Source: a virus. From it: DNA of 11,770 nt. The DNA lies in the UHGV virus genome UHGV-0308383; one strand, written 5' to 3'. Of the stretch, positions 5,131 through 7,775 are shown in pieces. Under the pieces are notes generated by a model. It saw nothing but the letters and a program-made list of their open reading frames with translations. It was not told where the DNA came from and ran no database searches. How positions within the stretch are numbered: the stretch's first letter is position 1; each line of letters starts with the position of its first letter. A program made the translations under genes and the position numbers.

Positions 5131-5161
5131 TTAGAAAATAAAAAAGGCTCCCGAAGGAGCC
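5131..5161 (-). terminator. Rho-independent terminator on the minus strand: GGCUCC-UUCG-GGAGCC hairpin followed by UUUUUUAUUUU
   Basis: Perfect 6-bp GC-rich stem (5146..5151 / 5156..5161) with a UUCG tetraloop; U-run is the complement of 5131..5145; directly 3' of the endolysin stop. Confidence 0.8.
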
Positions 5162-5171
5162 TATGAAGATA

Positions 5172-5636
5172 TTACTTTGGATATACACTGTCAAGATAAA
5201 TGTTAGCTTCCATTCTACGTCTATTTTTCAGGCCGTTTGAAGTGACCTTCTCACCTTTGACTGTAATCTTGTTCCACCACTGCATAGCTTCTGCACAACC
5301 TACCTTATTACCAGCATTGTGGCGCTTAATAAATGTAGAATCCTGCATAGCTGTGATACCAATGTTGTATGTTTCACTTACAAGTGCATCGAACTCATTC
5401 TGAGAGGTTGGAACCTTGATAGCTTTGTTCACTGCTGCAACAAACTTTTCAACATCTGCGAGAAGATACTGTTCAGCTTGTCCAGCCGTGATTTTCATAC
5501 CCATCTTAACAGGTTTTCCGTCAATACGGATTGTACCATACCCGATTGTTGGGATTCCGGCAGAGTCTTTGTAAGCCTCTAACTTCAGACCTTCAAAGAA
5601 CTTAATGGCTTCTAAGCCTTTTCTTGAGAGTTGCAT
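5172..5636 (-). CDS. Endolysin: phage lysozyme (glycoside hydrolase family 24, P22 gp19 / lambda R / T4 e type), 154 aa, no signal or SAR segment
   Basis: Motifs FEGLKLEAYKDSAGIPTIGYGT (catalytic Glu/Asp/Thr region) and GLKNRRRMEANIY are typical of this lysozyme family (recognised by eye); strong GGGGAGG Shine-Dalgarno; ATG overlaps the upstream stop (TAATG). Confidence 0.9.
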   Translation of the reverse strand: MQLSRKGLEAIKFFEGLKLEAYKDSAGIPTIGYGTIRIDGKPVKMGMKITAGQAEQYLLADVEKFVAAVNKAIKVPTSQNEFDALVSETYNIGITAMQDSTFIKRHNAGNKVGCAEAMQWWNKITVKGEKVTSNGLKNRRRMEANIYLDSVYPK

Positions 5637-6769
5637 TATGCCTCCCCTGTTGGGTTAACTGTAACTGTTGCCGCATTAGATGTTACAGAGCCACCTGCAC
5701 CAGTCACTACGCAAGTGTAGCTTCCTGCATCAGCAGCAGTTGCACCTTCTTTGGTGTAAGTTGCAGTCATTGCGTCTGGGATGTTTTCCTCACCCTTCTT
5801 CCACTGGTAACCTGTCGCACCTGTTGCCACAACGTTGAGTGTCAATGTCTCACCTTCAGTGATTTCTTGATTAGTTGGCTGTTGAGTGATTACAGGAAGT
5901 GCTTTAACGGTTACTGTTGCAGGGCTAGAAGTAACGGAACCACCTGCACCTGTTACAACGCAAGTATATGAACCTGCATCTGCTGGTAGTGCGCCAGACT
6001 TGCTATAAGTAGCGTTTGTAGCTGAAGGAATATTAGAGCCATCTTTCTTCCACTGATAGCCCGTTGCACCTGTGGCAGTCACTTCCAAGCTAATGTTGCC
6101 ACCTTCATTGATGGTCTGGCTAGAAGGTTGTTTGGTAATCACTGGTAAAGCGTTCACAGTAACTGTTGCTTCATCTGAGGTAACGCTTGTTCCAGCCTCT
6201 CCAGATACAACACAAGTGTATGAGCCAGCGTCAGAAGGTACTACAGATTGTTTTGTGTAAGTTGCAGAAGTGGCACTGGGGATATCCTCACCATCCTTCT
6301 TCCACTGATATCCAGTGGCGTTAGTTGCTAGAACACTTAGAGTAAGTGTGCCACCCTCATTGACTGTTTGTCCTGTTGGTTGCTGAGTAATTGCTGGTGG
6401 CTTAATAGCATCCTTCAGCTTAGCATTCAACATTGAGAATGGCTTCACTCTTGCCAGCCATTCACAGTAAATTGTGTCAACATCTTTACCGTTGATAATT
6501 GCATACTGTAAATCCATGAAGAAATCAGCAGTTCTCATCTGCGCGCCGACGCTGTAAAGGAGTTCATCACTAAATGGAACTTTGTAGTCTGGTTTGTAAT
6601 CAAACTTCTCAACTTCTGCAATATCAGCTTCAGGCCAATATGAACTATAGGTAAGTGGTAAAATAGCTTCTTGATATGTTCTAAAATCATATCTCTTACC
6701 AGCCTTTACATTTGCAATGAAGCCCTTTACAAATTCTTTGAAGTCTGGGTAAGTCTTTGCTTTAATCAT
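5636..6769 (-). CDS. Protein with three tandem Ig-like (I-set-like) domains at the C-terminus and an N-terminal domain paralogous to CDS 6766..7137; candidate virion-decoration or adhesion protein
   Basis: Three ~80-aa repeats with the pattern QP..Q...EG..L.L.V.ATGATGYQWKKDG..IP.AT.ATY.K.....ADAGSYTCVV.G.GGSVTS..ATVTV; N-terminal 130 aa aligns with 6766..7137 (MDLQYAI vs MDIQYVI, YWPEAD vs KWPEED). Confidence 0.85.
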   Translation of the reverse strand: MIKAKTYPDFKEFVKGFIANVKAGKRYDFRTYQEAILPLTYSSYWPEADIAEVEKFDYKPDYKVPFSDELLYSVGAQMRTADFFMDLQYAIINGKDVDTIYCEWLARVKPFSMLNAKLKDAIKPPAITQQPTGQTVNEGGTLTLSVLATNATGYQWKKDGEDIPSATSATYTKQSVVPSDAGSYTCVVSGEAGTSVTSDEATVTVNALPVITKQPSSQTINEGGNISLEVTATGATGYQWKKDGSNIPSATNATYSKSGALPADAGSYTCVVTGAGGSVTSSPATVTVKALPVITQQPTNQEITEGETLTLNVVATGATGYQWKKGEENIPDAMTATYTKEGATAADAGSYTCVVTGAGGSVTSNAATVTVNPTGEA

Positions 6770-7137
6770 TTCTTTTTAGCCTCTAAACGTGCGTTTAATC
6801 TAAAATAGCCTTTATGTTGTGGAGACACATCACTAACAACAATACCTTCAACTTTATAGCCCTTACCAATTACATACTGGATATCCATAAGAAACGTACC
6901 AAGCCCAACAATGTGGAACATCGGGTATAGTAACTTATCTGAATCTGGGAGTTTAATTTCTGGGTTATAGGCGGGTTGTTCGGCAGTTGGTGTAATATCC
7001 TCTTCAGGCCATTTACTCATTCTCCATGTTAAAGGTGATGCAATAACATCGTTGAGATTATATCTTTCACCATTCTCCACGGAGTGGATATAGGATTGTA
7101 GGAAGCAGTAAAAGTCTTTTGCACTCTTAGCCTTCAT
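6766..7137 (-). CDS. Hypothetical protein, 123 aa; paralog of the N-terminal domain of CDS 5636..6769
   Basis: ATG at 7135..7137 with AAGGAT upstream; ATGA overlap with the downstream start; clear paralogy seen by eye. Confidence 0.8.
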   Translation of the reverse strand: MKAKSAKDFYCFLQSYIHSVENGERYNLNDVIASPLTWRMSKWPEEDITPTAEQPAYNPEIKLPDSDKLLYPMFHIVGLGTFLMDIQYVIGKGYKVEGIVVSDVSPQHKGYFRLNARLEAKKK

Positions 7138-7147
7138 TAAATATCCT

Positions 7148-7176
7148 TATAAATAGAGAAAGGGGCATCAGCCCCT
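7148..7176 (-). terminator. Terminator-like hairpin on the minus strand (AGGGGC-UGAU-GCCCCU) followed by a U-rich tract
   Basis: Stem 7161..7166 / 7171..7176; minus-strand downstream sequence TTCTCTATTTAT; lies between CDS 7185..7775 and 6766..7137. Confidence 0.5.
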
Positions 7177-7184
7177 GTTTATAC

Positions 7185-7775
7185 TTAAGCTTTGGTCTTA
7201 AGTAGGTTCTTAAGTTTTTTGAGATTCATGCTCTCGTCAAACTTAAAACCAAATCCATTGACATAATCAATGAACTCGGATTTCTTACTCAGTGATAGTG
7301 CGTAACTCATATCGAAGTTATTACTTGTTTCTGCATCTGGACTAGAGTTCACATCAAATGAAATTTCTGTAGGCTCTTGCTTGCTACTTCTCATATTATC
7401 AATCAATAGACAGGTATAGTTTGCTGGATAGAAGTTAACACTACCATCAACATATCCATACTTGTTATTGTGAATAAGGCTGGAAAATACCTTAAGAAAT
7501 GTTTCTGATTCGTGGCATACAAGTTTGAATTGACTGCATTCTCCAAGAGCCACTAAAGAGTAAGGACTTTCACTATCAATGTCGTAGTTTGGGTTTGATG
7601 TTGTAACCGTCACACGCATCAGGTTATTTGCAATAGTCTTCTGCTTAAAAGAATTTTGAACATAGTGAAGACCTCTATCACACTGATTGACTAGCTCTTT
7701 AAGAAGGTCATTTGCATATGGTGAATTAATTGATACAGAGCCATCACTATTGTAATTAAAACTTACTGTTAACAT
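7185..7775 (-). CDS. Hypothetical protein, 196 aa
   Basis: ATG at 7773..7775 preceded by AGGAGA. Confidence 0.75.
   Translation of the reverse strand: MLTVSFNYNSDGSVSINSPYANDLLKELVNQCDRGLHYVQNSFKQKTIANNLMRVTVTTSNPNYDIDSESPYSLVALGECSQFKLVCHESETFLKVFSSLIHNNKYGYVDGSVNFYPANYTCLLIDNMRSSKQEPTEISFDVNSSPDAETSNNFDMSYALSLSKKSEFIDYVNGFGFKFDESMNLKKLKNLLKTKA

What the first reader, a model, noticed from the sequence alone, without database searches (positions are those of the whole stretch)
5636..7137. Tandem paralogs, one extended by three Ig-like domains and translationally coupled to the endolysin
CDS 6766..7137 and the N-terminal 130 aa of CDS 5636..6769 are clear paralogs. The downstream copy has acquired three tandem ~80-aa Ig-like repeats, each with a single conserved Cys (YTCVV) and a GYQWKKDG motif, encoded as ~243-bp DNA repeats at about 5639..6367. 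Ig-like domains on phage proteins usually decorate virion surfaces. The TAATG stop-start overlap with the GH24 endolysin is unusual: it suggests co-expression of a putative surface or adhesion protein with the lysis enzyme, or a cell-wall-binding role for the Ig array supplied as a separate protein. The tandem repeats are also a substrate for copy-number variation.
Basis: partly seen in the sequence, partly recalled or inferred. Interest (0 to 1): 0.55.

Follow-up and report, generated by a model that had tools for sequence, protein, structure and literature searches.

The report
Known phage head-decoration gene plus truncated paralog
The long gene encodes the Hoc-like "Hex-Dec" protein that cryo-EM has already shown sitting on the capsid of Felix O1-like phages, so it is ordinary, and the only new point is that the small gene just upstream is a diverged stand-alone copy of its capsid anchor whose role is unknown.

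Summary
The window is a Felixounavirus (Felix O1-like myophage) segment. The sequence observation holds.

- **Paralogy:** CDS 6766..7137(-) and residues 1-120 of CDS 5636..6769(-) are 36% identical (E 4e-18) and share a fold.
- **Ig array:** the long protein carries three tandem I-set Ig domains. The period is 249-252 nt, not 243.

The long protein is already known. It is Hex-Dec, a monomeric Hoc-like decoration protein bound at hexamer centres (PDB 9NCF chain S, E 1.5e-297; Sf14 gp20, 9C2D). It was detected in virions and is usually mis-annotated "tail protein".

- **Copy number:** Ig number varies from 1 to 4 among relatives. Chimeric repeats show in-register unequal recombination at the GYQWKK-coding segment.
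- **TAATG overlap:** it is not unusual. 11 of 16 leftward junctions overlap and three are TAATG. A cell-wall-binding role has no support.
- **The 123-aa paralog:** neither structure paper mentions it. It lacks the two capsid-contacting arginines and is under purifying selection. In Felix O1 its transcript peaks late with Hex-Dec, yet it is absent from two published virion proteomes. About 8% of isolates have lost it. Its role is inferred only.

Overall interest is low to moderate.

The parts
6766..7137 (-). Stand-alone paralog of the Hex-Dec capsid-binding domain (123 aa; phrog_4463, no Pfam family)
   Evidence: 36% identity to Hex-Dec residues 2-119, E 4e-18. Hits PDB 9ncf_S at 1.3e-12 by sequence and TM 0.65 by fold. 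dN/dS is 0.06-0.19. Gly and Gln/His replace Hex-Dec Arg79 and Arg107 in all paralogs aligned.
5636..6769 (-). Hex-Dec: Hoc-like hexamer-centre capsid decoration protein (377 aa)
   Evidence: PDB 9ncf_S (Bas63) E 1.5e-297 and 9c2d_S (Sf14 gp20) E 3.8e-170. phrog_3995 at 1.8e-207. Described in PMC12609058 and PMC11821841.
6398..6769 (-). Capsid-binding domain (CapBD), residues 1-124, with Arg79 and Arg107
   Evidence: Near-identical to the modelled part of 9ncf_S. Arg79 and Arg107 are invariant in all Hex-Dec sequences aligned. In Sf14 these residues form salt bridges to capsid protein Asp221.
6146..6397 (-). Ig-like domain 1 (residues 125-208, 84 aa)
   Evidence: Pfam Ig_3, I-set and Ig_2; repeat parsing; AF2 pLDDT about 95.
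5897..6145 (-). Ig-like domain 2 (residues 209-291, 83 aa)
   Evidence: Orthologous to Bas63 repeat 2 at 91%.
5648..5896 (-). Ig-like domain 3 (residues 292-374, 83 aa)
   Evidence: Orthologous to Bas63 repeat 4 at 97%, so relative to Bas63 the missing unit is internal.
5172..5636 (-). GH24 endolysin (154 aa)
   Evidence: Pfam Phage_lysozyme 3.2e-40; phrog_7 endolysin. It has its own GGAGG Shine-Dalgarno 5 nt before the ATG.
6766..6769 (-). ATGA stop/start overlap between the paralog and Hex-Dec
   Evidence: Sequence read. The same kind of overlap occurs in Bas63, D1-2, AYO145A, Sf14 and the metagenome contig L012.
5634..5638 (-). TAATG stop/start overlap between Hex-Dec and the endolysin
   Evidence: It is one of three TAATG junctions in the window.
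7161..7176 (-). Terminator-like hairpin upstream of the three-gene block
   Evidence: Scan. The same hairpin is annotated as a rho-independent terminator in AYO145A and listed for Felix O1. It is retained in phages that lack the paralog.
5145..5162 (-). Terminator-like hairpin downstream of the endolysin
   Evidence: annotated as a terminator in AYO145A.
7185..7775 (-). Syntenic upstream gene (196 aa, phrog_4034, function unknown)
   Evidence: Homologues precede Hex-Dec in Erwinia phage Panisse (E 2e-20) and a Hafnia phage (E 4e-14). The order phrog_4034, Hex-Dec, endolysin is therefore conserved across the Ounavirinae.

Best explanation
The window comes from a Felix O1-like myophage. CDS 5636..6769 encodes Hex-Dec. 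Its N-terminal domain of about 120 aa plugs as a monomer into the centre of the pentamer-proximal capsid hexamers: one per asymmetric unit, so about 60 per T=9 head by symmetry. Arg79 and Arg107 pair with a ring of capsid-protein aspartates there. Three I-set Ig domains project outward as a Hoc-like fibre that probably helps virions adhere to surfaces or to each other. That last step is inferred. The number of Ig units changes among relatives by in-register unequal recombination at the conserved GYQWKK-coding segment. CDS 6766..7137 is an old tandem duplicate of the anchor domain alone. It is coupled to Hex-Dec by an ATGA overlap and is under purifying selection. In Felix O1 its transcript peaks late together with Hex-Dec's. 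It lacks the two arginines and has not been found in virions. I infer that it is a non-structural accessory factor whose job is tied to capsid decoration, for example transient binding to immature hexamers or to Hex-Dec itself. I give that specific role about 0.5. The endolysin simply follows in the same densely packed transcription unit, and the stop-start overlap has no special meaning.
For: Identity of the window: 96% DNA identity to phage ECP2307, and 251 Felixounavirus-type records match. Hex-Dec: sequence match to solved chains 9ncf_S and 9c2d_S. Cryo-EM descriptions cover the N-terminal capsid-binding domain, the Ig string, binding only at pentamer-proximal (facet-edge) hexamers, and the Arg79/Arg107-Asp221 contacts. 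Felix O1 gp36 was found in virions with 44% MS coverage, and Sf14 gp20 was detected by MS. The Ig fold is confirmed. Copy number: 210, 294, 377 and 460-461 aa forms exist. D1-2 repeat 2 is window R2 (90-100% identity) switching to window R3 (93-100%) near nt 75-105. REP5 repeat 1 is R1 switching to R2 at the same place. Paralog: homology and fold; arginines replaced in all 19 paralogs aligned and kept in all 12 Hex-Decs; dN/dS 0.06-0.19. The paralogs form one clade that mirrors the Hex-Dec branching, including a divergent metagenomic phage with the same gene order. Felix O1 ORFs 36 and 37 are both maximal late, with structural genes. gp37 is not in the Felix O1 virion list although 9.7-13 kDa proteins are. 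The VpaE1 virion proteome adds only gp54, gp58 and gp68. Overlaps are ordinary.
Against: Nothing here shows directly what the paralog binds. Its absence from virions rests on two older proteomes and on its not being listed in the Sf14 table, not on a targeted search. The Felix O1 timing data are semi-quantitative RT-PCR and place the endolysin (ORF 35) in the middle class, which fits poorly with one simple transcript. The paralog has decayed in about 20 of 253 phage records, apparently through one ancestral deletion, so any role is dispensable in the laboratory. The adhesion function of the Ig array is by analogy with T4 Hoc. The only phenotype on record is a host-specific fitness effect of Bas63 g124 in E. 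coli S17-1. The AF2 model of the paralog is only moderately confident, and its alignment included Hex-Dec sequences.
Confidence: 0.8

Rival explanations
1. The Ig protein is a cell-wall- or envelope-binding module supplied in trans to the GH24 endolysin, co-translated with it through the TAATG overlap.
For: Hex-Dec and the endolysin are adjacent in every Ounavirinae locus examined. The two genes overlap by 1 nt here.
Against: Orthologues are capsid-bound and present in virions. Pfam finds no cell-wall-binding family in the protein. Overlaps are the rule in this gene chain. The overlap is replaced by gaps of 8-49 nt in Sf14, Panisse and the Hafnia phage. The endolysin has its own strong Shine-Dalgarno sequence.
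Confidence: 0.03
2. The 123-aa paralog is a second, so far unseen capsid decoration. It caps the 20 hexamers on the true three-fold axes that Hex-Dec does not occupy, or it sits there at low occupancy.
For: It has the same fold as the capsid anchor. The lobe equivalent to the capsid-contacting one is its most conserved part: entropy is about 0-0.4 over residues 71-120. That lobe is basic (pI 9.6), which would suit the acidic hexamer centre. Its transcript peaks late with Hex-Dec's in Felix O1. A monomer on a three-fold axis would be blurred by icosahedral averaging.
Against: Both structure papers report no density on those hexamers. It is not reported in the Felix O1 or VpaE1 virion proteomes although smaller and rarer proteins were found. 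Both capsid-contacting arginines are lost. It is dispensable in natural isolates.
Confidence: 0.12
3. The paralog has taken on a function unrelated to the capsid, for example binding a host protein or a defence protein. It stays next to Hex-Dec only for historical reasons.
For: The capsid-contact residues are lost and 30 positions are fixed differently between the two groups. It evolves about 1.5-2 times faster than the anchor domain: 76% against 87% identity to Sf14, and 46% against 57% to the metagenomic lineage. It is absent from virion proteomes.
Against: The tight ATGA coupling to Hex-Dec is kept across deep divergence. Its transcript peaks late together with structural genes. No similarity to any other family was found in Pfam, in the PDB or among 1.84 billion representative proteins.
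Confidence: 0.25
4. The long protein is a tail protein, as most database records annotate it.
For: The PHROG label is 'tail protein', with hits to 'major tail protein' families. Many GenBank records use the name.
Against: The tail-family hits cover only the Ig region, residues about 96-295. Cryo-EM places the protein on the capsid, and the Bas63 paper explicitly calls the annotation wrong.
Confidence: 0.01

Closest known systems
Hex-Dec of Escherichia phage Bas63 (bas63_0124, PDB 9NCF chain S) and gp20 of Shigella phage Sf14 (PDB 9C2D chain S)
   Same: Orthologous. The N-terminal capsid-binding domain is almost identical and keeps Arg79 and Arg107. I-set Ig repeats follow it. The genomic place is the same: outside the structural module, between the 123-aa gene and the endolysin.
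   Different: There are three Ig units here against four in Bas63. The unit missing relative to Bas63 is internal (Bas63 R3). Sf14 also has three units, but they are only 53-62% identical, and its endolysin start is 8 nt downstream rather than overlapping.
[quoted passage not shown]
   Same: A monomer at hexamer centres with a string of Ig-like domains pointing outward. It is dispensable and thought to mediate adhesion or aggregation. PHROG 'Hoc-like head decoration' families hit the Ig region.
   Different: The domain order is reversed: the anchor is N-terminal here and C-terminal in Hoc. The published comparison finds the anchor larger, topologically distinct and pseudo-two-fold symmetric. 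Hex-Dec occupies only the pentamer-proximal hexamers.
phrog_4463 (123-aa proteins of unknown function: Felix O1 gp37, Bas63 bas63_0125, Sf14 gp21, VpaE1 ORF40c)
   Same: The window's short CDS is a full-length member: E 1.4e-77, and 98% identical to the UAB_Phi87 protein.
   Different: No function has been assigned to this family. Its relation to the Hex-Dec anchor is not discussed in the structure papers read here: neither contains 'paralog', the Sf14 paper contains neither 'duplication' nor 'gp21', and the Bas63 paper does not contain 'gp125'.
Hex-Dec homologues of other Ounavirinae (Erwinia phage Panisse/phiEa21-4 'conserved structural protein'; Hafnia phage SarahDanielle)
   Same: The same anchor domain at 28-35% identity, in the same synteny: phrog_4034 homologue, then Hex-Dec, then endolysin.
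   Different: The display domain is swapped: Big_2 in Panisse, and only a sub-threshold Invasin_D3 match in the Hafnia phage. Neither has a stand-alone paralog.

Membership tests
Ounavirinae Hex-Dec hexamer-centre decoration protein (9NCF_S / 9C2D_S; phrog_3995) | N-terminal capsid-binding domain of about 120 aa homologous to the solved chain | tested here: met
   E 1.5e-297 to 9ncf_S and 3.8e-170 to 9c2d_S; residues 1-123 are nearly identical.
Ounavirinae Hex-Dec hexamer-centre decoration protein (9NCF_S / 9C2D_S; phrog_3995) | Arg79 and Arg107, which contact capsid-protein Asp221 in Sf14 | tested here: met
   Both are present in the window protein and invariant in the 12 Hex-Dec sequences aligned. 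The contact itself is taken from PMC11821841.
Ounavirinae Hex-Dec hexamer-centre decoration protein (9NCF_S / 9C2D_S; phrog_3995) | C-terminal string of Ig-like domains | tested here: met
   Three Ig_3/I-set stretches; AF2 pLDDT about 95; titin and Robo fold matches at E about 1e-20.
Ounavirinae Hex-Dec hexamer-centre decoration protein (9NCF_S / 9C2D_S; phrog_3995) | Physical presence at hexamer centres of this phage's capsid | not testable with these tools
   Shown only for the orthologues in Bas63, Sf14 and Felix O1.
T4 Hoc family | N-terminal Ig domains followed by a C-terminal capsid-binding domain homologous to Hoc's | tested here: not met
   The anchor is N-terminal. 'Hoc-like' PHROG hits cover only residues about 120-370, the Ig region. 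The literature reports reversed domain order and a topologically distinct anchor. So it works like Hoc but is not a member.
Hex-Dec capsid anchor fold (for the 123-aa paralog) | Same fold as the solved anchor domain | tested here: met
   Foldseek gives 9ncf_S TM 0.65 and 9c2d_S TM 0.63, probability 1.0, with no other hit at E <= 0.001. The model is of moderate quality.
Hex-Dec capsid anchor fold (for the 123-aa paralog) | Capsid-contacting Arg79 and Arg107 | tested here: not met
   Replaced by Gly and by Gln/His in all 19 paralogs aligned, and by Gly and Arg in the divergent P0099.
Hex-Dec capsid anchor fold (for the 123-aa paralog) | Presence in the virion | not testable with these tools
   Published proteomes of Felix O1 and VpaE1 do not list it. 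No targeted search exists.
Endolysin cell-wall-binding module supplied in trans | A recognised peptidoglycan- or cell-wall-binding domain | tested here: not met
   Pfam finds only Ig-type families in the 377-aa protein and none in the 123-aa protein.
Phage major or minor tail proteins (database annotation) | Homology to a tail-tube or tail-fibre core rather than only to an accessory Ig domain | tested here: not met
   Matches to phrog_158, phrog_853 and phrog_3575 cover only the Ig region.

The most novel reading that the evidence does not exclude
The stand-alone anchor paralog is a functional partner of capsid decoration that the cryo-EM studies missed. Either it is a cap for the 20 true three-fold hexamers that icosahedral averaging blurs, or it is a transient placeholder or competitor on immature hexamers that sets where and when Hex-Dec can bind. 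That would explain why Hex-Dec decorates only the pentamer-proximal hexamers.
Probability: 0.12. Interest if true: 0.5.

Novelty: new member of a known kind. Interest (0 to 1): 0.25.

Why it matters
The main object needs no new explanation. It is an orthologue of a structurally solved capsid decoration protein, and most database records still mislabel it as a tail protein.

Two small additions have some value. First, chimeric repeats give direct evidence that Ig-domain number on this Hoc-like fibre changes by unequal recombination inside the gene. The Sf14 paper had raised gene capture from hosts and loss through premature stop codons. Second, a conserved, late-transcribed, anchor-only paralog sits immediately upstream in about 92% of these phages and has not been discussed.

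If the paralog takes part in decoration, it would offer a handle on why Hex-Dec selects only some hexamers. It would also matter for using this anchor as a display scaffold on Felix O1-type therapeutic phages.

Tried and rejected
- **Tandem Repeats Finder:** it found no array in 5636..6400, because the Ig units are only about 55-63% identical in DNA. The exact-seed repeat search gave the 249-nt register instead.
- **First word-indexed protein search, with the paralog:** it returned only 123-aa paralogs.
- **Second word-indexed search, with the anchor domain:** it returned almost only one-Ig forms. Neither search gives an unbiased length distribution, so I estimated copy number from the spans of a rank-spread BLAST sample.
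- **AF2 on the full 377-aa protein:** it modelled the anchor badly (pLDDT 30-50). I did not use that part, since a solved structure exists.
- **Promoter scan:** no sigma-70-like site lies between the upstream hairpin and the paralog start, so how late expression is driven stays open.
- **NJ tree:** it groups the paralog clade with the long Hafnia and Panisse branches. I treat that as long-branch attraction and do not use it to date the duplication.
- **Literature gaps:** the PhageMaP preprint has no held supplement, so fitness values for Bas63 gene 125 could not be read. VpaE1 Table S2 is not in the held text. The C. rodentium phage paper had nothing relevant.
- **Rfam:** it found only tRNAs in the window.
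- **Pseudogene reading:** rejected for the window copy on dN/dS and on length conservation.
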